Positions 10,924 through 62,565 of a DNA stretch of 64,000 nucleotides are shown here, in pieces. Both the position numbers and the translations under genes were made by a program. The notes beneath the pieces were generated by a model. The model did no database searches, was not told the origin of the DNA, and saw only the letters and a program-made list of their open reading frames with translations. Position 1 is the stretch's first letter. The number at the start of each line of letters is the position of its first letter. Source of the stretch: Amoebophrya sp. A120 (lineage: Eukaryota; Protista; Dinoflagellata); NCBI GenBank assembly GCA_905178155.1, contig CAJINV010000009.1, positions 3,280,768 to 3,344,767 of the forward strand, read 5' to 3'.

Positions 10924-13548
10924 ATGCGTTTTCGTCCACAATTTGCGTTGTCGTTTTTGATTTGTCTTGCCTGGGATGCTAAAATTACGGCAGCAAGAGC
11001 GGCAGCTGCGGGTTCTGAACAAGTGGCAGGGACAGGCGAAGTCCTTCCGCCGTCATCTACTGCTGCGGCAAATGCAGGTGCTGCAGGCAGCCGTTTTTTT
11101 GCCACCGCTCGAGATGCGCTGAGCAAAATGTGTGCGAAACGGCTGTGCCTCCAGAACCTCCAGAAAAATGGAGTTCCTAGTACTGCACATCTCCCTGCGG
11201 GACGCGACGGGAAGGAATGGCGAAGTGAACTCCGACAAAGAAACTTGGGTCTGGAGCGAAGCAGGACAGAGGTCAGCACGGAACAACGAGAGAGCCAGCT
11301 GGTTGTCGTTGAGGATCTTGGCAAGGCCGCCAGGTCCAGTCGTTCGGGGAGAATCCGCGGGGCTGGTGGCGTTGTTCCGATGATGCCAGGTCCACTGACC
11401 TCCGAAATTTTTTGGCGAACAGCGAAAAGGGATTCTGAATCTGATTCTGTCTTGGGCGGCTTTGCAAGAACTGATGAAGCGGTGGGCAAAAGCGTGGCCA
11501 CAGACGTAGTACGGAGCTTGGCGTTCGGAGCCCAAAATGGGACACGCAACAGCAAAAACGATCCCCTAACCACAACTGCAAAACAAGATGAGGGAGGACG
11601 AGACGGGCATCGGGAACGGGATCGACGCAGACCTCCTGCCGCTGATGCCAGGAACGGATCTCTGAGTATGGAGGATGGCCTACTGTTTTTGGGCCACGAG
11701 AAAGATGATCTGTTGAATCGAGGGAGCGGGATTCTCAGCTTCTTGTCTCCGAAGCAGACCACTGCAGTGTTGGGGTTGAGCAAGGAGTTCGCCCCAAGCG
11801 GAAATCTGGGATCCCGGGTCACGACAGCGGCCAAGGCACAGCACAAGAACGACGTCGCGTTGGCGAGTCGCACAGAAAGTTGTGCCGATCTGTTCCTCCA
11901 AGCTCTGCGTGAAAAGGTCGCGGACAGGAAGCCGCGCGATTTCTGGAATACCGGTATTGATGGGGCGGGGCTCGACTATCTGCAAGGCTTTGTGGCTTCA
12001 GACACGAAGCCGGAGGAGGGACAGCCATTGATTGGCTCAGATATTGACTGGAGCGTATAATCTTAATGCTGCTTCTGTTTGTTGATGCAAAGTACTTACA
12101 GGTTCTTCATCGTAGCAGTAAGTAAAAGTGTTACTGTGGAAACCGACTCAACACATTGTTGCAGCTACGAGGACAAAGAAACAACGCAAATTGGGCACAG
12201 CTTCGCCGCATGTATGAGCTGTCCCGAATATGTCTAACCTGCAGGTGAAACTTTTGATGGTCATGGCGGGACAAACTTGTAATCCGCTAGCAGCGTATCG
12301 ACGGGTGGAAGACGCTGAAGCGAGAGCCGGTCTTTACCACCGAAGAAACCTGGAGACGGGCTGTCATGTGACTGACATTGACTTCTTTCGGGAAGTTCTG
12401 AGCTTCTTTTATCCTGAGTAATAACGTCCCCACACCAGAAACAGAATCAAGATGGGAAATCTGCTAGACAAATTAGCCAGCTTCGGCTGTTTCGCATAAC
12501 AAGTTTGATGTCCTCGTAGTGTAATCCTGTTTAGCTAGTTCAGTGGCGTCAAAGATCTAGCGAATCATGCTGGTTATAGCAATACAAATTCCAAGATACG
12601 ACGAGAAAATGCTTCTCATGTGGCTCCGCGTGAGAGACTTTTTTGGCATGTGTTTTTTGCATGACAACTCTGAAGTGAGGACGTTTTTACACCCGATATC
12701 TTTCACGAGGATGTTGCGGACTCCGTTGCCTTGAAAAACCCGGGCGGTGTCGAGGGGGAGAATCCAACAAGGAAGGTGGTGGTTTGGTCTCCGGCATTAA
12801 CGAACTCGTTCGGCGCGCGAGAGAACATGGCACTGAACCCGAACCAAACCGAATTAGACGGCCGGTGTCGGTTGGCAATGGCGACAGAACTACTATTCCA
12901 AAGGCAGATGGAAGTTTACGAAGTGATGGACTTCATTGTGAAGCATGGTATAGCATTTTGCTTTCATTTTCACACGACGAGGTACAATTCTTGTCTACCT
13001 GATAGTTTATTTGGTTTCAGTTTGAAGAAGTCACTGTGAGTGGTCTTTGTGATGCTTCTCCTTAAGTATGTCTGTGAGGTTGTGCACAGAAATCGTAGTA
13101 CGCCAAATATTATATATGCGTACACTTACTTTTTCCTTAATCCATATCCTTTGCGGGATGCATCGGACAAAACGCCTCAACTCCTCTATACTCAGGTTAC
13201 TGCCTGAACCCAGACTCCAATTCAGAAATCGAGCGGCAATACCGGCGATCAGATCCTCTCAACGACAACTGGCATATTTTCTTCCGCAAGTTGTTTCGGC
13301 AATTTGCCCAGAAGTGGCGCCGCGGATCAGATGGCAGGGACCCGCGCTGGTCCTATGACCAGTTTCTGTGGGACTGGCGAACAACACACGCGAAACGGTT
13401 TTCAACTAGGTCAGCCCGGCGCGAATTGTGTCCTAGCAGGCCGAGCGAATGCCCGTTGCCCAAGGTGCTCGCAAAGCACCACGAAAAGTACGGCGTCACG
13501 CTTCCGACAGAAATAGAGTATGACGGGAGGTGGACAAGAAGCGTGTAG
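10924..13548 (+). CDS. Paralogue 2 of putatively secreted family; exons 10924-12054, 12245-12409, 12704-12947, 13196-13548
   Basis: Signal-peptide-like MRFRPQFALSFLICLAWDA; GT-AG introns 12055-12244 and 12948-13195; introner at 12410; family motifs conserved. Confidence 0.8.
12410..12698. mobile_element. Introner family F (TIR tatcc..gtaa(a/t)aacgtccccac), DR tcttt
   Basis: Removing 12410-12703 gives SFF|HEDV, matching uninterrupted DFFHEDV in paralogue 1. Confidence 0.9.
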
Positions 13549-14344
13549 AACATCAGGCAGGTGAAGACGTTGTGGAAGCGAGAGCGATTCTCGAAATTGG
13601 GAAAATTTTGCACACACGCCATTTTTTGCCTCAGATGACGAGGTGCGACATTAAAACAGAATGTCTTTCAGCAGCGACGTGGCTCGGTGTAGCGCACAAG
13701 TTGAAGACCTGCACTGCTGCTACCCAAAGACGTCAAAGGGTTGTATGATTTCGGTTTTTTTAAATGAATAAGTTACAACTGTATAATAATACGACAGAAG
13801 AAAAGTGCACGACCTGCTGAGGCGAGGTTAGGGTGAAAAAGCTGCCAGCCGGACAAAGAGTGCTCTCTCCCAGATTCAACTTCCAGATGGTTGGACCAGT
13901 AATGGGGAAGGCGGTGTCACTAGTGAAAAGAAAGATCGCCTGCTCCTGGCTAATAACTCGAATCTGAGTACGCTACAGCACGCTAAAGATTTCTGTTTAG
14001 GACGCGCATACATAGACATATTAGACCAAAATGTAAATCCTACTGGAAACTAGAACGACGAAGATGGAAATCGAAAAGAAGCTATTCGTGCTTCTCAGTA
14101 ATAGTCGCGGCAGAAGTAATGGACTTTAGTCCTACATTGATTTCGAAACGAAAAGTCCAGTATACGCCCCGGTCTCTAAACATACGCATACCCTCCTTCT
14201 TTCTTTTGCAGCGGCACCCATGTACTTGAGAGAGTTTTTGCTTGACGTTAGGGCTTGGGAGTAGGTCAACAGGGGGGAGTTCTTGCACGCTAGATTAAGA
14301 AGCGCAAGCGAGATTAAATCATAATTCCAGCTGGCAAAAGAAAA

Positions 14345-17300: not shown

Positions 17301-17367
17301 AATATTGAACGAGAACCCGGCCGACTACCTTGTAGAAGTTCCCACAAAAGTGGCCACTGAAACTTGA
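14345..17367 (+). CDS. Paralogue 3 of putatively secreted family; exons 14345-15017, ~15316-15935, 16197-16451, 16661-16844, 17027-17367
   Basis: Signal peptide MWLPQHLLKLLLFFLFSLSYDSATA; GT-AG introns 15936-16196 and 16845-17026 are at the same positions as in paralogue 2. The acceptor of the first intron is uncertain. Confidence 0.75.
16453..16656. mobile_element. Degenerate introner / non-canonical intron
   Basis: Imperfect TIR tatcatcggaaaactgca / tgcactttcacgatgatt. Removing 209 nt gives PPK|TRSFPGQR versus PPKTNSFSRQR in paralogue 1. Confidence 0.7.
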
Positions 17368-18010
17368 GGTGAAGAGTAGCGGGTCTCATGTATAATTCCA
17401 ACACGAAGGACAACGAACATCAAAGAGCACGGCCCGCCATGGCGGAAACACAAATAAAACATAGTACATCTACTAGAGAAAAGAAAAAACGCCGGCCGAG
17501 CAGGTCCAGATTCGATTTCCGGATCGGAACCTCGAGAAGTGTTTTCTTGTTGTGTTGAGTCGCTCATCCTCATCCCAGTATTGTCGTGCACATCGTTTGT
17601 TCTGTTCTTCTTGCTTTCGTCTTACTTGTCGTGCTGATATAGGTGTCGTCCAAACTCGTCTTGAAGAATTCCTTTCGTACTTTGTGTCGTTCCACGTGCT
17701 TGCTGCATCGTCCTGACAGCATCGTCGTTTGCTGTGATCGTCCACCATCGTGTTGAACCGCAGAAGTGCCAATTCACGACGCAGCGACGGTCTGCGTGAG
17801 TAAATAACTGTAGATGAAAAGTATACTTGAGGTAGGTTTGACACGATCTTCAGATCTATTGGCAGTGTCAACATATCAGATCCTCCCGTGATAAAGTATT
17901 TGATCATTGCTGTTTGTGTTTACGTCAGCGTATTTCAACCCTTGGTCGTGATTCTAAACTGACTCCTAGAAGTAGCAACCAGCAAATTTTTAATAGTCAA
18001 ACAGCAAAAA

Positions 18011-21000
18011 ATGTCAGCCGCCACGACCAAGGAGCCCAATGGGGCCTTGCAACTGCTTGTTGCCACTGCTTCCGCCTACGGGGTGTACAAAATCTACGCC
18101 TACTACGTCAATAAACAGAGCCATAGAGCAGGAAAAACGCTTTACCTCGACCCCGATGAAACTTCTTACCGGTTTGCTGGAAGGAGGAAGCACAGCAAAG
18201 AGAAGGACCAGCAGCAGGGTAGAAGTAGCCCCACGACGAGGACGAGAGGAATGAATAAGAAATCTTCCAGGTCGAGGGAGAAACAATCTGGGTCTTTTTC
18301 CTCTGATACAAACCCCACTACTACAAGCAGTCCAGAGGACGCAACAACCCCTGCTGCTGACGAAGATCTAACCACCACGAACCAGGAAATCGACGACAAC
18401 GGGGACCCGATCAACGAAAACCAAGTGGATTTGATATAGCAAGAAAAAAGTGTTACAGTTACACATTGTGTTGCAAGACCGGCAACACAGACAACCTTTC
18501 TCATGCAGGAAATGCTTGGGAGCCTCGTTTCCTTCCTGTTTTCCCTTATGATCTTCGCATTACAAGTCTTCTCTGCCACACAGAGAAAATTTGTGATGCA
18601 GAAACTCCAACAAATGTGTAACTGTAACACTTTTTTCTCACGATATTTGATCGGCCAGTTTTATTGGGACAAGCTTTCTGAGAAAGCCCGGCTCTTACTC
18701 GAACAGCAGATGTTGATCCAGGAAAGTTTCATCCCCGGGTTTATCCAGGATGCGAAGGATAGGCTACTATCAAATGTAAAAATGTCTGGGTCTGGAGGAG
18801 TCTAAACTTGTCATGCAGGTTTTCCATGACCCACTAGGTCTGGAATGCGGGACCTAGCATGGGAGACTTTGTGAGGTCTTTGTCATGCCCATCCAGCATG
18901 AGAAACTCCCTGTCCCTCCCAACTTGGTCGGCAGTGGACAGCTTTTGGCACTCATGCAACACAGATTTTTGCATGATTCGGATTTAGCATGACAAGTTGG
19001 CACTCTTCCAGACCCAGACATTTTTGCATTTGATAGCTGCGGGTCCAAGACTACCAGAACGCGAAAAAGGCCGTGTTGGAGAAGAAAAAGTTGGAGAAGA
19101 TGCTGAAAAAATTGGAGTTCCGATATCATTTAGTCTTAACCTGTTTGACCGACTTGGATATCGCGTATTGCAAGCGAAAACTCGCTTTGGACGTGTCCAA
19201 GTCGACCTTGCTCCGGTTGGAACTGGACGAACTCGTGGAGTCGAAAATCGCGGATTGCAGGAGGAAATACTTCGGTGGAAACAATAGAGTCGGAAGCGGG
19301 TTTCTTGTTGGAGGGATGGCTGGATCTTCCGGCTTTTCCAGTCCGAGTTCCAGTAAAGCGAGTACTAGAAATAATTATCAGCTCGCTGCTACGGCTTCCT
19401 CTCTCTACCCCTCTCTGGAGGAACCGCGAAAGCACAATGGGAATCATGTGTTTCAGCAGCAAAGCCCACAGTTTCCGCTTCGTAGTTCCCCGGAGGGCGA
19501 AAATTTCCATTCTGGGCGCTTTCAACAACAGCAACAGCAGCAGCATCACCAGCAGTGGAGTAGCAACTCAACGCGCAATAACATGAGTTTAGTGCTCTCT
19601 GCCGATGACATTCCGAACGAATTTGATGATTTTTTTGTGGATGAAGATGGGTCGTTTTTGCTGGAGCAACCCCGCGCGAAACCCCCGACTCCGGTGAACA
19701 TTGCGTACTATCCGGAAGGAGCAGGAGGTCCTCGTACTTCTAGAGGAGGGCCACTGCGTGGTTCTTTTTTCCGGAGGACAAGAGAAACAACTCCAGCATC
19801 CTTCACTCCAGGAATAAATAACATAAGTGCAGCTGGAAGGCCTTCACCAGGTGCGGGGACGATGTTGACGTCGTCTGTTCATCATGCTGGAACATCAGAC
19901 ACGAAATCTTCGAAGCCAGATGTTTTATTTCATCAACCTCTCGTTGATTTCGACCTTTGCCTTTCCGAATCCGACTCCACTGCTTTGGAAACCACGGAAA
20001 TCTCCACCTCGCTTTACCCGGAACTGGAGCCGCCGAGGTTGTTTTCCTCAAACGGTTTTCTGTTCGGACTGACAGCAACTCGTAGTTCTACTTCATCGGC
20101 GACCACTTGGAACAGATCAAATTCCAGGCCCACCCCAGCACCGGTGAAAAAGGTTCTCTTCGCGGCCCCCGGAGTGACGTATCGGGAAGTGGTTCGGCGG
20201 CCGCGAGAGGCAGAGGACGGGGTAGAGGGGGCCGGAGAAGTAGAAGAGGAGAATAGAAATCCTCCGCTTCCTTTAGGGAAAAAGGCCACAGTGGTGTCGA
20301 AAGCGAAAAGTGTTTTGAAGAAGTCGAGCTCTATCATATCCCACGAAAAAACAGTTTCACTTTGGTGATTTTGCACAATCTGCATCACAAGTTCCTTACT
20401 CATGACACAGAAAATTTGCCATGCGCGCTTCCCGATGGAAAACACGCTTGAAAATGCAATGTGTTGCAGGTGTAGCAAGACAAATATTTCTGTGGTCCAT
20501 TTTCTGCATCACAAGTTCGCAGTGAAGCAGTTTTTTCTTGCGATATATCACGTCGCTGTCCGAAGGGCCTGAATCCTCCGGACGGAGTCAGTCGCCTTTT
20601 GTCGGAAGGAATAGTTGTGGAAGCAGTGGGAGGTGGGGGCAGCAGCGGGGGCGTTGTGCGTCATCTAGTACTTCTTCCCGGGTAGAAGATTGCTCGCCGG
20701 CCGCGATGTTGAACAGCCGCCGAAGCGGGTCCTCTTCGGCGGTAGAAAGAACTACACCGTCTAGAAGTGCACGAGGACGACGAGGAGCGAGTGTGGACGG
20801 GAAAACTGCACCTAATTCCGCCCCATCTTCACCTGCGCAAGAAGACCACGGCCGCGGGAGGAGATCTTCTGTAACTGCGATGAGAGAGCGATTTACTAGC
20901 GGTCGCAGAGTGTCATCTGCTATCCGTTCATCTCTACCAAAGAACAATGCCCCCGTCACTCCTCCTCTGTCTACTTCCCAGAGGTCGAGTTCCACTAGGA

Positions 21001-22044: not shown

Positions 22045-22264
22045 TATGACAGTGCACAACTCCCCCTCCCCCTCATTTGTCATGCAAAAACCCAAGTCCA
22101 GTTGCTACCTTGTGGCACCGCGTGCATGACAAATTCCGGGAATCCGAACCGTACTACACTCGGCGCATGAACTTGTCATGCACAGGGTCCACCTGTAGTG
22201 GAGTTTGTAATGCTGTTGATACCATACAAATTATGAGGGGGAGTGGGGGTTGTGCACTGTCATA
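22045..22264. mobile_element. Introner family D, DR cacgg (probably in the 5' UTR)
   Basis: TIR tatgacagtgcacaactccccctccccctcat / atgagggggagtgggggttgtgcactgtcata. Confidence 0.9.
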
Positions 22265-22278
22265 CACGGCCCCCCTTG

Positions 22279-25200
22279 ATGACGATCTCCGAGGAAAGTT
22301 GGCAGCAGCATTGGCATATCAAGTGCAAAAGTATCGTCCTAGTATGAATTGCATTACAAATTGCCTTAGCATTACAAATTAATTTTGTAATGCGGATTTG
22401 CCTTGAGAAACAAAAAGATTTGTAAGGCATAAATGCAATTGTACGAGTGCGATACTTTTGCTGTGGATATGGCAAAACACGTTTTCTAATGCGCAACTGC
22501 TGGCACAACAAGGGCTTACGAACACGACGACGACGACGAACAACAGCAGTACGAACCAGAACCTGACCCACCAGCAGTTTAACCAATATAACACCCAAGA
22601 CCAACAAAACCTCGCAGCGGTACAGCAGTTCCAAAACTATTACGACCAAGCGGCGCAGCAGCAGTACAACCAGCTGGCACAACAGCAGTACTTGTATAAC
22701 CAACTCGCTTGGTACAATACCAATACCAGCAATACGAATACAAATCCTGCCAATACAACGAATAGTACCATGGGCTACTACGACCGCAGTTCCCGTAATG
22801 CCGACATAGGGGATATGGGAGTGTTAGGATCGAAATCGACAAAATCGAAAAACTTGTAATGCACAAAATCGATGCCAGTTAGACCCACAGTTTGTAGTCG
22901 GCGCATGACAAACTTACCACGTCCTGGAAGCGAATCTGTCATGCGGTTTAGGGCAAAATAGCTCCCCTCCGTCATGCGAGCCACCAGCGCAATATGTGAC
23001 ACTTAGCAGGACTACAATCTGCCTCCTTTGCGTCCTCTGCAATAGAGGCACTTTTGCTGTCGCATTTTCTGCATGACAGATTATTTCGACCTTGTCGATT
23101 TCGATCCTGACGCTTCCATAGGAGACAGCCGGCGGTGCATGGGTTTGTTCCTCTCGCTATCCCATGTAAAAACGTCCCCACCCCATAGTCAAGATGGGGA
23201 ATCGACTAGACAAGTCCACGAGTTTTGGCTGTTTTGCATGACAAATTTGGAGTCGCCTTGTAGTGCTGTTTGAGGTCGTTCAGCAGCATCACAGATCTAG
23301 CACATCGCGCTGATTGGCGCATTACAAACTCCAAAACGCGAATAACAAATGCTTCTCATGGGGCTCCGCATGACAAACATTTTGAGCATGCAGATTTGCA
23401 TGACAACTCTGGGGTGGGGACGTTTTTACACAGGATACTCGCGGGGGCGTCCCGGGGAGAAAGATGTGTACACGGGGAAATCGCAGGGCATGAACGGGAG
23501 CTGGGATGACGTTGGGATCTCCCGGCTCGTGGGCGAGTGGCGGAAGGAATTCAAGAAAGTGACGGATAAGTACAGCCACAAGCCCGCGCACCAAAGACCC
23601 ACGTTTCTGATCACCGATTTTCTTTTCGAACAAAACAAAATTGGGGACGAAGGGGCCAAGACGATCTTCGAGTTCCTGTTGGAGTATAAAGTGAAATGCA
23701 ACGTTATCAAGCTGTACAAAAACGACATCGGGGACACCGGGGCGTACTACATCGCGAAATATTTACGGGGCATGGAGGACTACGCGGTCCGCGAGTTGCA
23801 CTTGTCGGACAACTACATGGGGGCGAAGGGAATGGAGGACCTTTTTCAGGCGGTGGTCGGAAACAAAATGTATCCGAAAGAGGAGAGGCGAGGACCGTCG
23901 GTGTCGCTCTGTCCACTGTGGCTGCGCATCGAGAATAACTGTATTCGCATATAAGCATTTTTTTTTGTCATGCGTGCCGCCATGTCCATGTGTTTACATT
24001 TGTTGTTTTGAATTTGATTCGAAGCCTTACTTTGAGACGACCGCATGTTGACCAGAGACAACTGCATCGTCGATTTTTGATTCGTCCAATGATCACTGAA
24101 ATCACAGGCATCACCAACTTTATGGAGAATTTCGCGAAGATGGTACAGGAGGCCACCGACATCCGGACCCGCTTCATCCAGCCCGGCTACTGCAGCGAAA
24201 CGGGAGCGGTGAAACTCTACAAGGACAAGGCCGGGAAGGATGACGACAACTGGAAGGGGTACGTGATCCGGGGTCAGACCGGCCCCGCGTTCGCCCCCTA
24301 CACGTGCGCGGAGATCAACGGCAACTTCCCCGCCCTGTATTGCAATGAGAAATGCTCCCACCCCACACTTGGCACCAGAATTTGTATTGCAAACCTTTCC
24401 AATAGAAACATTTTCCGTCTTGCATATCTCAGCATCACAAATTTTCCATTCTGAATAGCTCGAATTTATTGTGTTGCGAAGGGGCCCAACAGCAGCGGGA
24501 TCTGTTATGCACAAAGCACCTTGCGCATCTAGATTCTGCATCAGAAAGGCTCGCAATCCTTTCACGCAACACAAAAAGGTTTCATTTGGAAACTTTGCAT
24601 GACAAACTTTTGCAAATACGGGGGTGGAGGCATTCTTCATTGTAATACCCTGCACGTCATCTTTGGGCAGAAGCAGCACCTGCATAAGGTCCAGTACACC
24701 CCCAGGCACGCGAAAATGCCCCGGCCGGTAGACGCGTTGTATCAAAATGAAAAATCCCCCCTCCCCATATCAAAGGGGGGATTTGTGTAGCATGATTTGC
24801 GACCACAAATCATATTGCCATGCTAGAAGGCAAAAGGTGCGGACTGTAGAGCTGGCTGGCGTGGGAAGGCCTTGCAACCTCAGCATGACAGGAGGCAGCT
24901 GGCATAGGGAAACAGCATGACAAATTTCCTGCAATTCAGGCAGCAACTGCTTCTCTTGGCCTTCTAGCAATACAAGTCGATTTGTGTACACAAATCCCGC
25001 ATGACAGATTTCCAATTCGATATGGGGTGGGGGGATTTTTCCTTACGATACGTTGCTGGATTTGTTTCCCGCCGGCGTGGCTTCCCCTAACTTCAAACCC
25101 ACGGTTCCATATGAAATGCAAATATGTCTGGGTCTGGAAGAATCCAAACTTGTCATGCAGAATTTCCATGCCCCGTGAGGTCTGGAATGCAGGACCTAGC

Positions 25201-26256
25201 ATGACAGAATCTGCGAGGTCTCTATCGTGCCTCTTCTGCATGAGAAACTTCCTCTCCTGGTGGTCAGAAAAGGGCATCTTTTGTTGCTCACGCAAGATGA
25301 CAGATTTTTGTGTGAGGCGCAGGATGCATCACAGGCTCCATCCTTCCAGACATCCAGGGATATTTGCAATGCATATCCCATCCTCGGTGACAAATCCGGC
25401 CAGTCTGACCCAGAACCAGCTGACCAATGGCGGTGGGAAATCCGGACCGCCGCAGGGCGCGGCTGTTCTGGGGGGGAAAAACGTGCAAAATTTGCGCCAA
25501 TTGAACAAAAACAACCTCCCGAACCCCGCAGCTTTGATGTCAACCAACGGTAATAAGCCCGTTGCTGGTAACTCCGCAGCTCCTGCCCCGTTACTCCCCC
25601 TCCGGGTGCCTCCAGCGAAAAACTCCTCCGCAGCGGCGTCAGGTGGCGGGGGCAAGAACAGTGGAAACAACAGCAATGTGAAAGGTAATGGGGCAAATCA
25701 ACAGCAGAGAGAACGGTCGCCCCGCCGTGGAGGTCAAAGTTCTAAGGACCACCAGCAGCAACAAGCGGCTGTCCCGAAACCGCCACCAACGCTGGAGCAA
25801 ATTATCGAAAATGGGGGTACGCCGGACCTGCTCGGTGGCGTGAATTCGGAAGAGGAATTCAACTTTGACAGCTTCAACGGCGGCTTCAACCCTTTTGCGG
25901 CGGAAATGAACGACGATGGAACGGGGAATCAGGATGGCATGTTGGATGACAACGGCGACAATTTTGGCGAGATGAATGCCGGTGACGATAACTACGACGA
26001 AACTACTGGGGACAATTTGCAGACCAGCGCCGATTCGGACAGCTTTTTCGTGAACGACATTGACCGGGAGTTCGGGCCGCAGAACGAACTGATCGAGCGG
26101 CACAACGGATACATTGCGACCATGGGCCTGGAAGAGCTTCCGAACGATTGGATCTACGCGAAGGGGATGGGTAACAAATCGAAAATCTACTACTTCAACA
26201 TGTCAACCCGGCACGCGACCACCAACCGGGGGGAAGTGTTTTTGGCCGGGGAGTGA
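22279..26256 (+). CDS. Q/N-rich, RNI-like leucine-rich-repeat protein with C-terminal WW-like domain; exons 22279-22316, 22475-22813, 23126-23157, 23443-23940, 24108-24337, 24653-24739, 25056-25109, 25381-26256
   Basis: LRR motifs NKIGDEGAKTI, NDIGDTGAYYI and NYMGAKGMEDL; ELPNDW...IYYFN. The frame is continuous after removing six introners and one GT-AG intron (23941-24107). Confidence 0.8.
22317..22469. mobile_element. Introner family C, DR tggca
   Basis: TIR tatcaagtgcaaaagtatcg / cgatacttttgctgtggata. Confidence 0.88.
22814..23120. mobile_element. Introner family E, DR gggga/ggaga
   Basis: TIR tatgggagtgttaggatcgaaatcgacaa / ttgtcgatttcgatcctgacgcttccata; removal gives DIG|DSRR. Confidence 0.88.
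23158..23437. mobile_element. Introner family F, DR ctcgc
   Basis: TIR tatcccatgtaaaaacgtccccacccca / tggggtggggacgtttttacacaggata. Confidence 0.92.
24338..24647. mobile_element. Introner family G, DR ccctg
   Basis: TIR tattgcaatgagaaatgctcccacccc / ggggtggaggcattcttcattgtaata. Confidence 0.88.
24740..25050. mobile_element. Introner family B, DR cgttg
   Basis: TIR tatcaaaatgaaaaatcccccctccccatatc / gatatggggtggggggatttttccttacgata. Confidence 0.92.
25110..25375. mobile_element. Introner family A, DR ttcca/tccca
   Basis: tatgaaatgcaaatatgtctgggtctggaag ... cttccagacatccagggatatttgcaatgcata; removal gives PTVP|SSVTNP. Confidence 0.88.
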
Positions 26257-47667: not shown

Positions 47668-48589
47668 TGTTGAACGACGGAAGGCGATACATAGAAGAGA
47701 TGCCGGGGGGTCGTGTGGAGATGCACTTAATCTTAAGTAATGATGTGCACACGCTGCATATTATTTAAGTACATGTACAGCAGAAGGGAAAGAACGTTTG
47801 AATTCATCGACGGTCGTGCTGTAGTACAGTGGTTCGAGGACACTTGTAGTACAGCCGTCCACGACCCGATTTGTGATCATGTTGCTGATAAACGCGAACG
47901 AATATGAGGAACTCTCGAGTGGTCCCAAGGACAAGACGGTCGAAAGACCGGATCAATACTGCGGAGGACGGAGAGCTGGGCCGGCAAAGTGATGATGGCC
48001 CAGACGAGGACTTGGTCGTCGTTGTTCTTTTCCGCTGTATTTTTGGTGCGTCTGTTGTAGTCAGCACCTATCGCTGCCATTGTTTCTACTTACATCTTCC
48101 TGCGATCTCGCTTTCCTGATGTAGTACTCGCAAAAGTGGCAGGACGTGTCCCGCACTCTCTGTTGTTTTTCGATTTCGCGGTAGAGTTTGTCTTTGTACC
48201 GATTTTAGTATCAACTTCGGCGCTTCTATGCGATCGGTTTCGGTACAGAGTGTCATGATACGATTCGTTCGGTGAATTTTGCGAGCCCTTCGCTTTTCGT
48301 AGCGAAATCCATTTATAGCTAAGCAGTTTCATCATCAGCCTAAAGCAGTGGAGGGGAGGCGCACTGTAGAGCTTTTTGTTTGATCCACGATCGTAAGTTC
48401 GCTCGCTCGTTCGCTTCGTTGTCCGCTTCTTGACTACGAATGAATAGATTAAGATTTGATTACGAACTGCGCCTGATTCCGAGACCTATAATTTATCGAG
48501 GGAACTTTAAAAGCGAGGAGAGGTAAATTCTTTGTAAACGTAAAAAAGCAAGTAGAGCCAGAAAAATAAAGTCTAATTCCGAATAAATC

Positions 48590-51500
48590 ATGCCCGATAT
48601 TGTTCCCAGCGCGTCCTCCTCCTCGAAGGCTGTGAAGCCGAAGGAGCAGTTCATAGGGACGACATCATCCGCAAGTGCTGGCTCGGCCTCGAAGCAGAAG
48701 AAAGGGCTGAAACCCGCTGCCAGCAAGTCCGTTCAATCACGAGATGACAAGAAGGCTCGACGTCACCAGCAGGAGGATGACAAAGGGAAGAAGAGCACGA
48801 AAAATTATAGACCCCCGCCGGCGCCGCGGCTGGACGAAACAAAATCAAAAGTAAAGGTCCAGCCTTCTTCGCAACCAAACAAGAACTCTCCCGCCCCTCG
48901 ACTGCCGACGACCAAGCCGCTCCTCCCACCTTGTCTCGAGGAGTTGCGCACCACAAAAAACCACTTGCAACCGGTGGACGCCGATCGAATCGACGATCCA
49001 AATCTGAAGCTCGACGCGGCCGGGGTGCCGGTGGTGCTGAAAAGCTTGAGGGAGACGAGGAGCAACGACAAAAATCACAATCAGGGTAGGTCATCTAATA
49101 TTTGCGGTACTAGTTCTGCGGATAATTCATCTACTGCGAACAAATTTTTATCCGCTAAGCAACGGCGGCACCTCACCGTCTTGAGCAAAAATCTAGGGCC
49201 GTTGGACCACGATCGAAGGCGGCTGATCAAGCAGTGGACCGCGGTTCTGTTCCCGCTGGTAGAGGTGGACGAAGGGAACATAAAGAAGCAGAATGATTCG
49301 CATGCACAACAAGCCACGTCCACCTTGTTAACAACTGCGTCGTCCGACGTGAAGAATGCAGCGGGTGGGGGACAGCGACAGCCGTCTGATGCTCCTCTAC
49401 TTCCGGATGAGTGTAGTTCTTCCACGAGAGGAAAAGAAGTTGGTGGCAAGAAACCAGAGGTAGGAACGACGTCTTCATCTAGCGGAATAAATGGAAAAGT
49501 AAATGAAGTTCTGTTACAAGAGCCAGTAGATTGTGCATCGCTTGAAACCAAGAAGAACAAGGACGACCTGCCTAGCACAATAAAAAATCGCGCGAAACAC
49601 GAACTAATATCGCGGTGCCTGCAGTTGCACCCCGACGACTTTGGCGTGGAGGAAATCGAAGCGCTCGAAGAGTTACGGAAAGCCATGCTCAAGAAAAGAA
49701 AAGCCCGCGCGCAGGTGTTGCAGAGCTTATTGCACGACGGGCGGGGGTTGGGGATGGGGTTGCACTTGCAGAACGAGAACCAGAAACAGGATGAAAAACC
49801 TCCGCAGAAGGTGATGAACGACACTGGGGCATCAAATAAAACTACTACATCGAGTCGCACACCAGAAGAGTCCTGTGCAACGCCCGCAAACCTGTTTTCC
49901 CAAACGCAGCATTTCTTTGCGGACGGATCGCAGACGCAGACCGGGGACGAGATCATGGAAGGCCCACGACCTGGTGTGGAAAAAATGACTGCTACTTCGG
50001 GTCAAAAAACAGTGGCGGGAGATGAAAAGCAAGGACAGGTGGGTGAAGTAGATGGCTGCGGGAACAACATTACGCCCGGATTTTTTGCGTTTCCGTTTTC
50101 ATCTTCAACACCTTCACAAACACCCGCGTTTAATAATACTCTTACGCCAGGTTACAACTACGGCACGAGCCGCTTGCTGCCGTTTCAAAACAAGAGGCGG
50201 GAGGAGATATTGGCGGAGGAAGAGAGAAATAAACGGTTGAAGAGGAAATACCTGATATCGAAAGGAAAAATCCCCCCTCCCCATATCAAAACGGAACTTC
50301 TGATGCTGGAGTTGTGTACACAAATCAGCTTTGTATTGCAGCAAGGCATAATTGCGGCTAGACCCCCAGTCTGCGTTTGGGTGTAGTTGTTCAGCATTGC
50401 AAACGGCTGCCCTTTAGGCGCAACAGCGTGGCAAATCGTTTCCTTAACGGGGCAAAGGCTTGTGCCCTTGTTTTCTTGCAAGACAAATGTGATTTGTGGC
50501 CACAAATCAGCAACGCAAATCTTCGGAAACATACAGCGTCAATATGGGCAGGGGGAGTTTTTCCGTTCAATACGTGAAGCAGCTGAAAGTGATTTACGAA
50601 AACGAAATCCTGAAAAAAACGTCAGAGCTCCGGAAGGCGCAGGTGCTTTTCAGCAAGCAGGAGGGAAAGTTGCGGGAAATCCAAGCAGAGAAATTGGAGT
50701 TGGAGATGGGGACGAACTACTGCAGTGGAGCGACCTGCGGAGCTAATGTGTTAGAAAAGCAACTGTTCAAGAGCCATCCGACCGATTTCACCCACCTCTC
50801 CGGCGCCCGACAAGTTGCCGACTACCTTGAGTTTCTTGTTTCCGAGCGCCGGTTCTGGCTGGGAATTTCGGAAAACTTGGAAAAAGTGGAGAAGATGTTG
50901 AAGGAAGAGACAAGAAGAAGAAGTTGTGGGACGGCCACTTCTACGCTGGATAAACAGAGTTCATCCCTGGTGGAGAAGAAATCCGTGGATTCAGCAGCAA
51001 ACGAAGACAGACTCGTGGCGCGAAACGATAGCGAAACGAGGAAAAATCAGTCGTCGCTTGCAGTACCAAATGAAGAAGCAAGTGACGACGAAGTAGAGAA
51101 CGCTGACAACTACAATAGGACCACGAGCACGGCGACTTCCAGCAGACAGCTTGTGGCTGCAGAGAGGTTTTTTCACGAGGAGATCCAGGAAAAGATTCTT
51201 TCTCGTCGGCGCGAGCAACAAGCCAGTCTTTTTCCTAATAGTAAAAGCAACAAACGGAAGCGGAAAACAAACTTGTCCCTCGTGAAATCCGGCGAAGAAC
51301 CTGGAGGTGCAAGCTCTTCGAAGAAAAGGAAGATAAAAGAAGACCAGAACCACGACTCTAAGAACTCAGGCGGACGGGCGGAAACGACGGATCACTGTGA
51401 AGATATGGCAATGGGAAATACTTTTTTCAGAAAACTTTTTTTTTTCGCCGCATATGATCTCACGGCACTCCATAGGCATACAAGCGGGCACGCGCAGAAT

Positions 51501-54500
51501 AGATCTGTCTAAGCGAGTAGACGGCTCTTGGTACTTAGCTAGCTACCTGTGACGCAAAAGAGATGCGGCCTCCGGAGTAGCCGCGGCCATGGATTCGGTC
51601 CTTGGCGCTCTGGCCTCAAGGTACTTGACACACAATGCCCCCACCGCGGCCTTTGTGTATGGGGCGGAGGCTCAGGGTAAGTCAGCGAAATTCTGAATGG
51701 CTCGCTTAGACGCGGCTGTCTGAAACGCGCGTGGCCTCTAGGCGTCGCTCGCCCCAGCTTTCGAAGTTCCCCAATAGAAAAATACAGATCAGGCTTAGAG
51801 CTTCGGCGTCTTTGGGTTTGTTCCGGGCCAGGCTGTACAGCTCCCCGTCTTGGCCGAATTCGCGCTGTCATTGTTCCAGACGCATTCTTGCAAAAGCCGC
51901 AAACTTGCGGAAACACAAAGCGCGGCCGGGCCCCCCCTTGAGGGGGGGGTTTGGGGGACCCCCCTTCGTGGAGATATCAATGGGGAGTAGCTCTCGGCAA
52001 AGGCCCCGAAAGGGGGGGGTTTGGGGGACCCCTTGGGGGGACCCCCGAGGACTTCGACTTGCAGCCGAGGAGGGAACTCTGCTAGCCTCCTGGCAAAACA
52101 GGCTGGGGCGAAGAACCGCACCCCGAGACCCAGGCCCGGAGGAGCGCCGCGGCCCTGGCATCACTGTCGTCAGCGCTGCCGCGTATGGATTTGAATTATT
52201 TTGAAGCTGCGCGCGGGCGCCTGTTTCTCCTGCTGGGGCGTGGGCCTGCTGTTGGCCCCAACCCGCAGCACGTCCGGCCTTGGGCTGCCCGCGTATTGCT
52301 TTCATTAAAGCGAAAGCACTGCAGGGGCTGGCCTTCCGACATCTACGCCGGCCACGCCGGACCCAAAGCCATGACGCAGTGAGCCCCGAGTGCGGTAATC
52401 TTCTTGCCGTCAGGCAAGCGAGCTCAGGATACCACTGCAGGCGCTGTTGCCACGCAGTCGATTTTTGCCGGCAAAAAGCCATCTACTTACCGCGACGGGT
52501 AAGTTATATGTGGCAAAAAAAAAGAGTTTTCAGCAAAAAGTATTTCCCATTGCCATAGAAGATATAGGCGGACGGGCGGAAACGACGGATCACTGTGAAG
52601 ATTATCCTCCTGTAGTAGAAGAGCCAGGAGAAGGAGACCTCCAAGCGGATAGTACTGGTCCAGTGAAAAATCAAGGAGATGATCATGAGGATCCCAATTG
52701 CAGCAAAGGTAAAAACACGTCGCCAGCAGGAGTTTCTTCCGCCCAAGCCGACCTCCTCGCCCAGCCGACCCCCGCGCCGGTGTTTTTTTCAGAAGAAGCC
52801 GCCGCTTGGCTGCAGAAGAATTTCGCCGTGGACGATAGTTTGTGGGTGTACGCGAGAACGTACATTTTGCTTGAGTCGGAACATAGAAATAGCAAGGAGG
52901 ACAGCGATTTGACAACATCACCGAAGGACTTTCTTGCCGAAAAAGCGTTTCTCTACCTGAAGTGCGCGGTTTTTAAGCAGCTGGTCTTACTGCAGAGAGA
53001 GATTGAAACGAGTTACGATCAGGTTTTCGCGATTGCGACTGGAACATGTGAGGAAAAAGGGGAGAAGCATGTTGAACTGGTAGCTCAACATGGGGACAGG
53101 ACGAGCAAGATCAGTACATGTACATCAACTGCAGTTCCGGGTGGAACTTCTACAACTGTCCCGGACCACCCCAAGAACACGAACACGAGCAGTGGCCGCG
53201 GGCACTCAATCTCGTTCACTCAGCTGGTCAACAAGAAGAAAATCAACATCATTTCCCAGCTGGAGACCTACAATGAACGAATCGCCCGGGCGCACACCGA
53301 GCTGCAATCCATAGAAGCGGAGATAGTCGAGAAAACCGCGGCCATCGGGGATTGCAAGGAGGAATTCGATATCCTGTGCAAAAGTATCGTATTTTTATTG
53401 CAATCATGCATTACAAATTTATTTTTTTCTTATGGTAAAGCCTACCGCATTGCAAATTCAATTTCTCATGCTGATGAAATTTGTAATGCATTTATACGAG
53501 TGCGATATTTTAATTTTTGCAATGCATATTCGAGGTCGCAGTTTGCGAGGTTTTCGGCGCGGATCAGATAGCCGCCGGCGCCGAACCCGGGAGCGCGTCC
53601 GCCGTTTCTGTGCGCAGCGCGGCCGCGGCGTCGGTGCTGTCGGCGGCGCAGGCAACGCTTTTTGTTCCAAACGGTTTTTACAGCGGTCGTGGTGGTCGTA
53701 TTGGAGGCGGTGGTGCAGCAGCGGGGCGGGGGTCTTCTGCACAGACCCCGGCACAAGTTGTGCAACATCCACACGTGGCCGCGCTGTGGACAAAAGCAGA
53801 CTCGACTCTGGAACAGGCTTGGGTGGCGGTTATGTCCCTATCAACTGCAAAAATGTCTGGGTCTGGAAGGTTGACACTTGTGATGCGCATTTCAGAGCAC
53901 AGAAAAATCTCTCATGCATAGGCAGCAAAAGTTGCCCATTTTCTGTCACCAAAGTCAGGGATTTGTCATGCGGATTCGGAACTACTGCCCAATCGTGACC
54001 ATGCCCGTAGGAACTACTTTAATACTGTCTCTACGACTTTTGACTTCATTCATAACCTTCAATTGTATTCCTACCTAACTTGTATTTTTTGTTTTTTCTC
54101 TGTACGATTGGCCAAAGCGCCACCGGGACAGCCTGCCCGTAGACCACCGATGTCATGCGGATTCGGCATTGCGAACGCTTCTCGAAACCTGTGATGCTAG
54201 AGCTTGCATGCCAGACCTTCTGTGTCATGCAAAAGCAGCATGAGTCTTCCAGACCCAGACACTTTTTCATTTGATAGTCCCTGTGCGAACGGAGTCCAGC
54301 TTGGCGGATGGCCTTCAAGGAGCAACAGAATATCGCAAGAAAGAAACTGTGTAAGTGTAAATCTGTGATGCAGAACACGCAGCAGAGTTACACCTGTCAT
54401 GCCAGACAGCCATGAAGTCCTCTTTTCATGTGTGTTTTCCCTTACCAACCATGCATGACAGGTTTTCTCTGTCATGTACGGCAAATTTGTGATGCTGTTT

Positions 54501-54555
54501 CCCAAAGAAAGTTACACTTACACACTTTTTTTCCTGGATACAGAAGGGAGAATGA
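48590..54555 (+). CDS. Large hypothetical coiled-coil protein; exons 48590-50255, 50578-51403, 52563-53369, 53534-53838, 54282-54330, 54546-54555
   Basis: ORF pieces join in frame after removing five TIR elements (KYL|KQLK, EF|EVAV, MS|LCER, QQ|KGE*). Confidence 0.75.
50256..50572. mobile_element. Introner family B, DR cctga/cgtga
   Basis: tatcgaaaggaaaaatcccccctccccatat ... atatgggcagggggagtttttccgttcaata. Confidence 0.9.
51404..52557. mobile_element. Long (1154 bp) non-autonomous TIR element, family L, DR gaaga
   Basis: ~50-bp TIR tatggcaatgggaaatacttttt... / ...aaaaagtatttcccattgccata; GC-rich interior with no recognisable transposase ORF. Confidence 0.88.
53370..53528. mobile_element. 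Introner family C, DR ttcga
   Basis: tatcctgtgcaaaagtatcg ... cgagtgcgatattttaatttttgcaatgcata; similar to the 22317 element. Confidence 0.88.
53839..54276. mobile_element. Introner family A with internal insertion, DR gtccc
   Basis: Family A TIRs; 438 bp versus 252-271 bp for the other copies. Confidence 0.9.
54331..54540. mobile_element. Introner family H (reverse orientation), DR cagaa
   Basis: Close reverse-complement copy of 42313-42521. Confidence 0.92.
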
Positions 54556-60400: not shown

Positions 60401-60830
60401 CCGCGGCTGCGAAGAGTAATCGCACTGATCAGAGCCGCAGAAGAAGTACTTCCTTCACTGTGCAAACCAATTTTGTCAACTCCTGGAAATGAAAGAGAAA
60501 AAAAGCATCAGAGAACAAGTGCCACCACTGCTTCAGCAGCGGCGTTTTGCTTGGTGGTCCTGCTACAAAGTGCCTATAGCTTGTGCAGCTCTTTTTATGC
60601 GCTTTATTCCGATGTTCTACTTCTAGTCGCGTCACCAGGACGTCGAGATGTTGTCTTCTAATATGATCTACTGCCCCCGACCGCAGAAGTGGTCGTGGAG
60701 AGCGAAAGATCATCAGCTGGTCGACGGTCGTTCATGATGATACCTGGCAAAATGTACCACCTGACCCGCCGCTGAGTCGTCGCCAACGCCGATTCGCGGG
60801 AATATAAATGGGAAGCCAGCACTGAGCCCC

Positions 60831-61340
60831 ATGTCAACCGCTCCAAACCCTTCGAACGAAGAGAAGCCCGCACTATTAAAGTTAAAGCAGGAATACTGTG
60901 GCACTTTGAACTACCTTGCCACTAGCACGCGCCTTGACATCGTAGTAGCATTAAAATTCTGTGCAAAAGCAAAAGTGAACGAAGAAACGCTGACCGCGTT
61001 GAAGCGTATCTTTCGTTACTTGCGTACGCGCCGCGTTCTTGTCTACAGGAACAAGCAAGAAATCTTGAAAGGCAAGCTCACTCTTAGCGTGTGGACCGAT
61101 AGCGACTTTGGTGCGCAGCCTGGTCGTCAGTCAATTTCGGGCACTGTCGTAAATGTCTGTGGTTGTCCGATCTATTGGCGCGCGCTCACGCAGTCCACGA
61201 TCGCGACAAGTGTGACCGAAGCAGAAATTTGCTCTATGACCGATGGGGCTAAGACTGTGCTTAGATTCTATTACGTGATGAACACATTGCGCGGCTGGCT
61301 TGAGAATTATTTTGCTATATCCACCATTCTATTGGACTAG
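60831..61340 (+). mobile_element. Ty1/copia LTR-retrotransposon fragment (RT C-terminus + RNase H)
   Basis: GTLNYLATSTRLDI, LKRIFRYL, WTDSDFG, SISG and PIYWRALTQSTIATSVTEAE are copia hallmarks. Confidence 0.88.
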
Positions 61341-61764
61341 GAGCCGGGGAGGTTATTGCGCGGTAATCGTCTAGTGCTCCAAGATCCAATGTGAATGATC
61401 CAAGTATACGATGACACAGGATGGAAATCAGATGAGTGATCATGTGCATAAGATTACACCTAATCGTATGATGCACACAGAGACAGTATAAGAAACTGTA
61501 TGAGAAGCTAAGTGGTTTGTAATGCATGTGATGCAACACAACCCTACAGAGACCAGCCTTAATGGCTAAAGAATAAGAAAAGAAATTTCCGTGACACACA
61601 AGCAAAGCTACCCACGCAAGGTACCAAATAGGCATTACAGATTGTTCTACTTGGATCGTTTCTTGTTTGGGTCTTGGTCTTCGCACGTTCACATGGAGAG
61701 CGAAAGATCATCAGCTGGTCGACGGTCGTTTCTTTTCGTTCTGGCTTCGACAAACAGGAACAGA

Positions 61765-62039
61765 GATGCTGGATTTGTGTACACAAATCAAGTCTGTCTT
61801 GCAGTAGAGGACTGCAAGCCCATACTAAGCCTAAGTAGAAGGGTTTTGCCATAGGCGCGGAGCATGGCAAATGTATACTCTGCAGGCCCCATAGCATCAG
61901 AAACCGCCTGCATAATGCGGCGGAGTCGCTGGATTGGCCTTCTTGCAATACAGAGACGATTTGTGTCCACAAATCAGCATCACAAATTTTCAGAAGTGTC
62001 CCTTTTTGGTATGGGGAGGGGGGATTTTTCCTTTCGATA
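61765..62039. mobile_element. Family B introner lacking its left TIR
   Basis: Right TIR atggggaggggggatttttcctttcgata is intact; the interior matches the 50256 element. Confidence 0.8.
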
Positions 62040-62294
62040 TTCCAAGCTCCCCATCGAACCCCGCATGGCCTACGCGGTGCTCCTCTCTTCCCTCCTCGGC
62101 GTCGCGCAGCCCATGTGTCTGATCGCCGCTGCCTCCTGTTACCAGGACCCGGTGCGGTCCGACTCCCCGTTGAAGCAACAATACGTCCAGAACCCGTGCT
62201 ACTCCGACCAGATTTTGATGCTGAAAATCCTCTACCAGTTGTTCGACACCCAGAAGCATTTAAACCCATCCTACTGTCGTGACAACGGCGTGAA
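62040..62294 (+). pseudogene. Isolated exon of a DEAH-box RNA helicase (HA2 domain), probably a gene fragment
   Basis: SKLPIEPRMAYAVLLSSLLGVAQPMCLIAAA...DP...SDQILML...YCRDNGVN; no other helicase exons seen nearby. Confidence 0.65.
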
Positions 62295-62565
62295 TATGCA
62301 ATGCAAATATCGATCTGGGTCTGGAAAGGTTGAACTACCTGTATTGCGTGTTTCGCACCATATCTGAAAAATCTGTATTGCATAAGCAGCAAGGAATAAA
62401 GCGCCACACCTTCGTCACGCAAAAGCGCAGTTTGTAATGTGTTCTGCGTACTATGAAAAAGCGTTTGAAAAATTTGTCATGCTGCACTGCACTGAAAGGC
62501 ACAGTCAATCAGGACAATTCAGCATTACAAGTTCTTTCCAGACCCAGACATATTTTCGATGCATA
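62295..62565. mobile_element. Introner family A, DR gtgaa
   Basis: tatgcaatgcaaatatcgatctgggtctggaa ... ttccagacccagacatattttcgatgcata. Confidence 0.85.

What the first reader, a model, noticed from the sequence alone, without database searches (positions are those of the whole stretch)
12410..62565. A multi-family system of TIR transposon-like introns with one grammar: 5-bp DR + TAT...ATA, with no GT-AG needed
Seen: 27 complete elements from about 10 TIR families with little shared terminal sequence. All begin TAT, end ATA and are flanked by a 5-bp direct repeat (22 perfect, 5 with one mismatch). For every copy inside a coding region, deleting the element plus one repeat restores the frame, including across conserved YME2 and WW motifs. 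In the cases I checked, sliding the junction within the repeat does not give a GT-AG pair. All complete copies are in genes or a gene fragment. Known: IR/DR introners were reported in Amoebophrya (Farhat et al. 2021), and to my knowledge their excision mechanism and mobilising enzyme remain unresolved. Inference: one transposase lineage (5-bp staggered cut) and one non-canonical removal pathway that reads the terminal stem. Removal could be at RNA level or, as with ciliate IESs, at DNA level.
Basis: partly seen in the sequence, partly recalled or inferred. Interest (0 to 1): 0.92.

Follow-up and report, generated by a model that had tools for sequence, protein, structure and literature searches.

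The report
Known Amoebophrya transposon introns, sharper rules
These are the already published transposon-like introns of the marine parasite Amoebophrya: short mobile elements that sit inside genes between two 5-base repeats, lack normal splice signals, and are missing with one repeat from a likely messenger-RNA contig; the new detail is that the message likely keeps the upstream repeat, which narrows where the still unknown machinery would cut.

Summary
Observation confirmed: 27 TAT...ATA elements, 10 families, 5-bp direct repeats (22 perfect, 5 with one mismatch), all in + strand reading frames, none with a GT-AG register. The system is in print as the Amoebophrya A120 introners (Farhat 2021: TAT+7 nt+AAA ends, RNA-supported). 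Gozashti 2025 lists one family with '5-bp TSD, TA/TA termini'. A probable-RNA contig lacks 9 of the 14 elements laid: 1 shown directly, 8 by exact offset sums. A probable-DNA run holds the elements at about exon depth, so removal is likely at RNA level. Added here: in 280 homology-defined copies from a conspecific assembly the repeat is exactly 5 bp. The families share an internal TGT(C/G/A)ATGC motif. Five informative mismatched repeats all favour the upstream copy as exonic (4 clear, 1 weak), which puts the donor at or 1 nt before TAT and the acceptor 4-5 nt past ATA. Against 'reads the stem': no sense-strand stem asymmetry. Unexplained: repeat mismatches are too often synonymous (43 of 77). 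No transposase found. The scan noted similar single introns in other dinoflagellate genomes, not this system.

The parts
12410..12698 (.). Element, family B, 289 bp, repeat TCTTT
   Evidence: in a 175-codon + frame after removal
18435..18645 (.). Element, family C, 211 bp
18768..19035 (.). Element, family A, 268 bp; repeat mismatch at position 4 (synonymous)
20337..20545 (.). Element, family C, 209 bp
22045..22264 (.). Element, singleton family, 220 bp
22317..22469 (.). Element, family D, 153 bp
22814..23120 (.). Element, singleton family, 307 bp; repeat mismatch at position 3 (synonymous)
23158..23437 (.). Element, family B, 280 bp
24338..24647 (.). Element, singleton family, 310 bp
24740..25050 (.). 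Element, family E, 311 bp
25110..25375 (.). Element, family A, 266 bp; repeat mismatch at position 2 (synonymous)
28669..28929 (.). Element, family A, 261 bp, at the start of a WW-like stretch (by eye; no Pfam hit)
29260..29420 (.). Partial element (right end only, like the 22045 family); left end not found
41875..47939 (+). Host gene of YME2/RNA12 type with 9 elements and one canonical intron; covered by one probable-RNA contig
42313..42521 (.). Element, family C, 209 bp
   Evidence: absent from RNA contig by offset sum
42587..42851 (.). Element, family A, 265 bp
   Evidence: offset sum
42953..43097 (+). Canonical GT-AG intron, 145 nt; internal control that run X2 is spliced RNA
43478..43739 (.). 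Element, family A, 262 bp; contig skips exactly 43473-43739 (262+5)
   Evidence: record 1 positions 2863/2864
44928..45195 (.). Element, family A, 268 bp
   Evidence: offset sum
45291..45569 (.). Element, family B, 279 bp
   Evidence: offset sum
46154..46437 (.). Element, family B, 284 bp; mismatch at position 1, contig keeps the upstream base (piece ends at 46149)
46671..46920 (.). Element, singleton family, 250 bp
   Evidence: offset sum
46998..47249 (.). Element, family A, 252 bp
   Evidence: offset sum
47305..47584 (.). Element, family B, 280 bp
   Evidence: offset sum
50256..50572 (.). Element, family E, 317 bp; mismatch at position 2 (Leu/Val); contig piece starts at 50575, i.e. the downstream base is not used
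51404..52557 (.). Longest element, 1154 bp, 52-bp TIR, GC-rich interior; no transposase family hit; only one internal motif
53370..53528 (.). Element, family D, 159 bp; contig piece ends at 53363 as expected for removal
53839..54276 (.). Element, family A, 438 bp with a nested insertion
54331..54540 (.). Element, family C, 210 bp, 90% identical to 42313 in the opposite orientation
61765..62039 (.). Partial element (family E, left end replaced by a 71-bp repeat unit)
62295..62565 (.). Element, family A, 271 bp, in a helicase-like gene fragment (HA2_C hit E 0.025, below cut-off)

Best explanation
These are non-coding TIR elements of the Amoebophrya A120 introner system, each flanked by an exact 5-bp repeat, likely inserted by an unfound transposase acting in trans and likely cut out of the pre-mRNA together with one repeat by a modified spliceosome that would set both cuts by distance from the symmetric element ends rather than by GT-AG. 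Shown: anatomy, exact 5-bp repeat, both orientations in genes, absence of element+5 nt from a probable-RNA contig, presence in a probable-DNA run, no GT or AG preference. Inferred: the mobiliser is a DDE enzyme of the integrase-like IS3EU/GingerRoot kind (TA..TA ends) with a 5-bp stagger, binding the shared internal motif. Inferred from 5 sites: the donor lies at TAT or 1 nt before it and the acceptor 4-5 nt past ATA, so the intron reads TAT-N7-AAAAA ... UUUUU-N7-AUA-N5. Untested: that the spliceosome does the chemistry. Odds: transposon-derived introns removed at RNA level about 0.9; this register about 0.7; modified spliceosome about 0.5-0.55.
For: Anatomy and shuffles. Second assembly, ends projected by homology without using TAT or the repeat: 280 elements, perfect repeat at 5 bp in 214, at 4 bp in 1, at 6 bp in 0; TAT at 544 of 560 ends (end shifts of up to 3 nt were chosen by best TAT match, 215 of 280 were exact without shifting). 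Its proteins are 99-100% identical to proteins named Amoebophrya sp. A120. Probable-RNA contig: direct skip of 267 nt = 262+5, and offset gaps of 160, 91 and 349 nt equal the predicted exon sums. Probable-DNA contigs cross exon/element borders at depth 23-29 against 29-37 in exon bins. Element+5 is the best deletion in 270 of 449 elements, +3 in 19, +4 in 19, 141 undecided. A copy in L057 splits the RPB1 GTIA|AQS stretch. Internal motif 17.2 per kb inside vs 1.2 per kb outside; strict motif absent from only 8 of 307 loci elements. Register: upstream base kept at positions 1 and 2; upstream residue G in 99 of 99 homologs (position 1) and A in 5 of 5 (position 4); E in 18 vs D in 7 of 28 (position 1, weak). 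A120 keeps U2, U4, U5, U6 and nearly all spliceosomal proteins but U1 was not found (Farhat).
Against: No transposase: none in 130 of 1037 loci ORFs scanned with Pfam, none in 14 window ORFs, no hit of a Copia-polyprotein profile on the 1037 ORFs. Farhat found none in A120 and argued against transposase mobilisation. No raw reads cover the exons (X8 28 reads, X9 1 read, element parts only), so lariats, circles and cut heterogeneity are unseen. X2 is RNA by inference only. The register rests on 5 sites, none at position 3 or 5, and 3 of them on conservation. Repeat mismatches are synonymous in 43 of 77 cases; a free intronic copy predicts at most 42% (p=0.01); 4-fold sites mismatch 9.9% vs 0-fold 2.8%. 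A fixed register does not explain this. 16 of 280 elements have a changed TAT or ATA, so the triplet is not strictly needed. One A120 introner family is a Mutator with 8-9 bp TSD, so this grammar does not cover all A120 introners.
Confidence: 0.55

Rival explanations
1. Same origin, but removal by a separate non-spliceosomal RNA pathway (endonuclease plus ligase) that measures from the terminal helix, as proposed for euglenid nonconventional introns.
For: No GT or AG enrichment at any of 6 registers against shifted exon controls; GT-AG possible in 16 of 330 vs 4.5% control. U1 not found. The inferred asymmetric geometry resembles the Euglena rule N3CDG...CH'GN5-6|R (abstract). Euglenid introns leave as circles (review passage).
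Against: No sign of selection for an RNA helix: G-U 324 vs A-C 323, folding energy p=0.22; arm positions 4-10 are often unpaired (628 of 2121 pairs). Tunicates process TIR-derived non-canonical introns with the spliceosome (review passage).
Confidence: 0.25
2. The element is never transcribed: RNA polymerase II would jump from the upstream to the downstream 5-bp repeat across ends held together by a protein bound to the TIRs and internal motifs.
For: Predicts that the upstream repeat is always kept (5 of 5 sites), no splice dinucleotides, no RNA-strand asymmetry and both orientations.
Against: No precedent known to me for nuclear genes (recall). Mismatches occur at all five repeat positions (19, 15, 11, 18, 14), including the 3' base that would need to re-anneal. 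The probable-RNA run holds element sequence, though its source is not resolved.
Confidence: 0.07
3. IES-like precise excision from DNA in the expressing stage.
For: Transposon ends and a microhomology repeat; would put both repeat copies under coding constraint, as the synonymous excess suggests.
Against: Probable-DNA contigs hold exon/element borders at near exon depth; no empty-site joint among the 15 joints listed (1626 not shown, so absence is not proven). The downstream copy carries residues that homologs never show. No separate somatic nucleus is known in Amoebophrya (recall), so excision would be inherited.
Confidence: 0.05
4. The junctions are reverse-transcriptase skips across a hairpin at short repeats and the elements stay in the mRNA (ribosomal bypass, since 5 nt always hold one full codon).
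For: Short repeats plus hairpins are the known setting of such artefacts (recall); the synonymous excess would fit matched take-off and landing codons.
Against: One contig at depth 30.5 lacks all 9 elements of the gene; an artefact would be a minority form. Conserved genes such as RPB1 are interrupted. The library of X2 is not on record, so this is argued, not tested.
Confidence: 0.03

Closest known systems
Introner elements (IEs) of Amoebophrya sp. A120 (Farhat et al. 2021, PMC7789003; abstract, section 3 parts 2-5, passages, supplement legends and Table S7 rows; figures not seen)
   Same: IR starts with TAT, 7 less conserved nt, then at least 3 A; direct repeats at the borders (example with 5 bp, Fig. 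S19 legend); RNA-supported non-canonical introns, mean 240 nt; 29,850 copies; no transposase.
   Different: The paper gives repeats of 3-5 nt of varying position and variable splice sites; here the repeat is exactly 5 bp and abuts TAT/ATA. I saw no mention of the shared internal motif or of a cut register in the parts read.
A120 introner families in Gozashti et al. 2025 (PMC12130899; passages and all 58 A120 rows of supplementary file 8; files 13-14 and SI figures not seen)
   Same: Most rows classed as TIR DNA of unknown superfamily, lengths about 105-320 bp and some near 1150 bp; fam38 noted 'Ginger; 5-bp TSD, TA/TA termini' with homology to LTR integrase-like ORFs.
   Different: Automated TSD calls there range from 2 to 11 and splice sites are said to be carried or co-opted; here no GT/AG preference exists at any register, so those calls likely reflect sliding within the repeat (inference).
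IS3EU/GingerRoot DNA transposons (Kojima and Bao 2023, PMC10045372; passages)
   Same: TA..TA termini, integrase-related DDE enzyme as candidate mobiliser.
   Different: TSD usually 6 bp there, 5 bp here; no transposase sequence in hand.
Euglenid nonconventional introns (Nomura et al. 2025, PMC12501133, abstract and passages; review PMC11282704, passages)
   Same: No GT-AG, terminal inverted repeats, slidable direct repeats, suspected MITE origin, cut sites set by spacing from a paired motif.
   Different: Different motif (CAG/CTG), purine at exon start, tested genetically; unrelated lineage; no stem asymmetry seen here.
Fritillaria (tunicate) non-canonical introns (review PMC11282704, passages; PMC13326754, search listing only)
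   Same: TIR/TSD-bearing recent introns outnumber GT-AG introns; precedent for a changed spliceosome.
   Different: They keep preferred dinucleotides (AG-AC, AG-AT); the elements here show none inside the repeat.

Membership tests
Amoebophrya A120 introner elements | IR begins TAT, 7 variable nt, run of A | tested here: met
   TAT in 54 of 54 ends, A at positions 11-15 in 45-49 of 54
Amoebophrya A120 introner elements | Direct repeat of 3-5 nt at the borders | tested here: met
   5 bp; 27 of 27 with at least 4 of 5 matches
Amoebophrya A120 introner elements | Repeated, non-canonical, absent from transcripts | tested here: met
   RNA status of X2 inferred
Amoebophrya A120 introner elements | Host is A120 or conspecific | tested here: inconclusive
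   25 of 27 window elements have 73-96% identical full-length relatives in an assembly whose two tested proteins are 99-100% identical to A120; no window protein was searched for this
MITE / non-autonomous TIR transposon | TIRs, fixed-length TSD, no coding capacity, many copies | tested here: met
   280 copies in 555 kb of loci chosen for holding one family
MITE / non-autonomous TIR transposon | Cognate autonomous element | tested here: inconclusive
   none in the window or loci; whole genome not held
IS3EU/GingerRoot | TA..TA termini | tested here: met
IS3EU/GingerRoot | TSD usually 6 bp | tested here: not met
   perfect 6-bp repeat in 0 of 280, 5-bp in 214 of 280
IS3EU/GingerRoot | DDE transposase in that clade | not testable with these tools
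   no enzyme found to place
U2-type spliceosomal intron | GT/GC donor and AG acceptor | tested here: not met
   0 of 27; 16 of 330 vs 4.5% control
U2-type spliceosomal intron | Lariat and branch point | not testable with these tools
   no raw reads on these exons
Euglenid nonconventional intron | CAG/CTG paired motif and purine at exon start | tested here: not met
   ends are TAT/ATA; first base after the repeat is C103 G88 A81 T58 of 330
Ciliate-type IES | Absent from expressed DNA | tested here: inconclusive
   present at near exon depth in one probable-DNA run, stage unknown; most joints not shown

The most novel reading that the evidence does not exclude
Tens of thousands of A120 introns are removed by a pathway that reads no splice dinucleotide and no RNA helix: a protein bound to the symmetric TAT-N7-AAAAA ends and the repeated TGT(C/G/A)ATGC motif, possibly a domesticated integrase-like transposase partner, fixes a donor at TAT and an acceptor 5 nt past ATA, either on the pre-mRNA without the spliceosome or by making polymerase II skip between the two repeats.
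Probability: 0.2. Interest if true: 0.9.

Novelty: already known. Interest (0 to 1): 0.4.

Why it matters
The system is published, but how it is spliced and what moves it are open. Three details here make that testable. An exact 5-bp duplication means the published variety of splice sites is likely an alignment effect. Naturally mismatched repeats (66 of 280 copies) are built-in markers that let existing RNA-seq fix the cut register genome-wide. A motif shared across families gives a bait for the binding protein and a probe for the autonomous element.

Tried and rejected
No whole genome was held, so no genome-wide transposase search. No RNA holder was listed on record; raw RNA runs X8 and X9 laid only 28 and 1 reads, on element parts. 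No reads were laid on 12410-28929 or 62295, so the mismatches at repeat positions 2, 3 and 4 there (25110, 22814, 18768) stay unread; all three are synonymous, so proteins cannot decide them. A 16-17 bp lattice of the internal motif looked likely but was not significant with one copy per family (p=0.12): dropped. RNA-stem selection tests were null. Co-option of GT at the last repeat base: 31% vs 34% control, rejected. Viral contigs: 0 hits for the long element's end and 1 chance-like hit for a family A motif, excluded from counts. The long 1154-bp element has no relative in the loci and no TE family hit. The 972-bp copy in L057 is a short element with a nested poly(A)-ended insert, not an autonomous one. 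The Copia-like fragment at 60765-61337 is RT/RNase H of an LTR element, not bounded by TAT...ATA. Rows dropped before counts: 119 of 449 elements without a confident coding frame and elements with more than 2 repeat mismatches (3); elements over 330 bp in the folding test (11 of 330). Paper searches for a later mechanism or a mobiliser listed nothing beyond the papers cited. Roy et al. 2023 is not held; its preprint listing has 0 mentions of A120. Figures and unseen supplements of Farhat and Gozashti may already show the motif or the 5-bp rule.
Full report
Observation. A scan for TAT...ATA with a 5-bp flanking repeat and a gapped TIR score gave 26 elements scoring 32-56; ten shuffled windows gave none at 22 or more. 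Two further hits at score 18 were at chance level and dropped. The 27th element (53370-53528) was read from the sequence. Of 27 repeats 22 are perfect and 5 have one mismatch. BLAST gives 10 families. Removing element+5 nt leaves every junction in a + strand open frame, including 931 codons over 7 elements (YME2/RNA12, Pfam E 3.8e-13) and 1221 codons over 5. No register within the repeat gives GT-AG or GC-AG on the gene strand (0 of 27). Two partial elements exist (29260-29420, 61765-62039). One correction: the ends share TAT-N5-G-N-AAAAA, not only TAT.

What it is. Farhat et al. 2021 describe A120 introners whose inverted repeats start with TAT, seven variable bases and at least three A, with 3-5 nt direct repeats, RNA support, 29,850 copies, no transposase and no U1. 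That is this anatomy. A pattern scan of metagenome contigs returned 150 loci of one other assembly, 555 kb with overlaps; 25 of the 27 window elements have full-length relatives there at 73-96% identity. Two proteins of that assembly are 99% and 100% identical to proteins named Amoebophrya sp. A120. Gozashti et al. 2025 class most A120 families as TIR DNA elements of unknown superfamily and note '5-bp TSD, TA/TA termini' for fam38. The finding is therefore already known.

The grammar, tested without circularity. Window elements trimmed by 10 nt at each end were used to project ends in the loci. Of 280 full-length copies, 215 had TAT and ATA exactly at the projected ends. After shifts of up to 3 nt chosen by best TAT match, 544 of 560 ends are TAT; a perfect repeat is 5 bp in 214 copies, 4 bp in 1 and 6 bp in 0. 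Sixteen copies have a changed triplet, 15 of them with a repeat matching at 4 or 5 positions. Element+5 is the best-scoring deletion in 270 of 449 elements, against 19 and 19 for the other two frame classes, 141 undecided. Every one of 14 clusters occurs in both orientations relative to its gene. An internal motif, AAA(T/C)(T/C)TGT(C/G/A)ATGC, occurs at 17.2 per kb inside and 1.2 per kb outside the window elements, usually first at 36-52 nt from each end. It is shared by all short families and nearly absent from the 1154-bp element. A periodic lattice was not significant. The motif supports one lineage for the short families; that a transposase binds it is inference.

RNA or DNA. Reads and contigs were laid on 41700-54900, which holds 14 of the 27 elements. 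Run X2 is RNA by inference: its contig lacks a canonical GT-AG intron (42953-43097), and its depth differs by gene (30 vs 4-8) and falls to about 1 between genes. Its record 1 joins 43472 to 43740, a skip of 267 = 262+5. The other gaps in the record (160, 91, 349 nt) equal the exon sums predicted by removing eight more elements plus 5 nt each. For 50256 and 53370 only one side is listed, at the expected place; 51404, 53839 and 54331 are not resolved. Run X5, even in depth across exons and intergenic DNA and so likely DNA, has contigs that cross exon/element borders at depth 23-29 against 29-37 in exon bins, and other copies begin and end at the same TAT/ATA coordinates. No empty-site joint is among the 15 listed, but 1626 were not shown. 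X5 may be the window's own source. Raw RNA runs X8 and X9 barely mapped. Removal at RNA level is the best reading.

Where the cut lies. A mismatched repeat marks which copy is exonic. The tool left-aligns joints, so the piece ending at 46149 keeps the upstream base at position 1 and the piece starting at 50575 excludes the downstream base at position 2 (inferred from piece ends). In the loci, 33 elements have a non-synonymous mismatch (with 50256); three lie in conserved proteins. L023:5305, position 1: upstream Gly in 99 of 99 aligned homologs, downstream Glu in none. L029:1743, position 4: upstream Ala in 5 of 5, downstream Asp in none. L028:1966, position 1: upstream Glu 18, downstream Asp 7 of 28 (weak). 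All five favour the upstream copy. The donor would then lie at TAT or one base before it and the acceptor 4-5 nt past ATA. This is five sites, none at position 3 or 5.

Results against a simple picture. In 330 of 449 elements with a confident frame, neither GT, GC, AG nor AC is enriched at any register. If an RNA stem were selected, sense-strand arm mismatches should favour G-U over A-C; they are 324 and 323, and sense and antisense folding energies do not differ (319 elements, p=0.22). So 'reads the terminal stem' has no support here, though a stem may still be used. Repeat mismatches are spread over all five positions and 43 of 77 are synonymous; a random change gives 27% and a fully free intronic copy at most 42% (p=0.01); 4-fold sites mismatch at 9.9%, 0-fold at 2.8%, ratio 3.6 (95% interval 2.0-6.3). 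This could mean a variable cut, conversion from empty alleles, or chance among several tests. It conflicts mildly with the fixed register and is left unexplained.

Mobiliser. None found: Pfam on 14 window ORFs and on 130 of 1037 loci ORFs, and a Copia-polyprotein profile on all 1037, gave no transposase or integrase. IS3EU/GingerRoot has TA..TA ends but usually 6-bp TSDs, so the elements work like that group and fail one of its features. Fam38 with integrase-like homology is the best published lead.

Mechanism. Most likely the elements are non-autonomous TIR transposons inserted with a 5-bp stagger by an enzyme supplied in trans, and are removed from pre-mRNA with the downstream repeat by a spliceosome that no longer needs U1/GT-AG and is placed by the symmetric ends. 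The symmetric U-run at -11 to -15 from ATA could serve as a pyrimidine tract in either orientation (inference). A separate endonuclease-ligase pathway as proposed for euglenids is the main rival; polymerase jumping, DNA excision and RT artefact are minor rivals.

Verdict. The additions (exact 5 bp, shared internal motif, upstream-copy register, null stem test, synonymous excess) were not seen in the texts read or in searches, but figures and some supplements were not visible. Interest 0.4.

Noticed in passing
window 51365-51403 and 52558-52603: The 1154-bp element sits in the first copy of a 39-bp (13-codon) tandem duplication; after its repeat come the bases TAT and then the duplicate, possibly a footprint of a local hop or repair.
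   Followed up: no
window 29240-29420: An element end with no left partner lies between two long + strand frames; deletion, assembly error or one-ended intron is unresolved.
   Followed up: partly
window 60697-62642: A Copia-like RT/RNase H fragment (60765-61337) and a helicase-like gene fragment still carrying introners are bracketed by three copies of a 35-71 bp unit; looks like DNA-level capture or rearrangement.
   Followed up: partly
window 63007-63423: Array of five 84-bp palindrome-bearing units (GAAAAGATGCT...AGCATCTTTTC), followed by GC-rich DNA.
   Followed up: no
window 30430-31800: GC-rich (61%) island without TIRs or Pfam hits in four frames tested.
   Followed up: partly
window 23940-24110: An apparent intron without TIRs that starts GC/AT-like and ends in AG and carries one copy of the internal motif; possibly a decayed element.
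   Followed up: no
window 41700-41875: The probable-RNA contig over the YME2-like gene extends 1894 nt upstream of 41875 with a gap, so the transcript may include the 39805-41697 frame.
   Followed up: no
L057:5001-5972: Element in the RPB1 gene with a nested 700-bp insert that ends in an A-rich tail and has a 15-bp direct repeat, like a non-LTR retro-insertion inside an introner.
   Followed up: partly
window 10830-12060 and 14320-15965: Two diverged paralogous frames with shared C-terminal stretches and no introners.
   Followed up: no
L014:2-1090: C-5 cytosine DNA methylase domain in the related assembly (Pfam E 5.5e-15).
   Followed up: no
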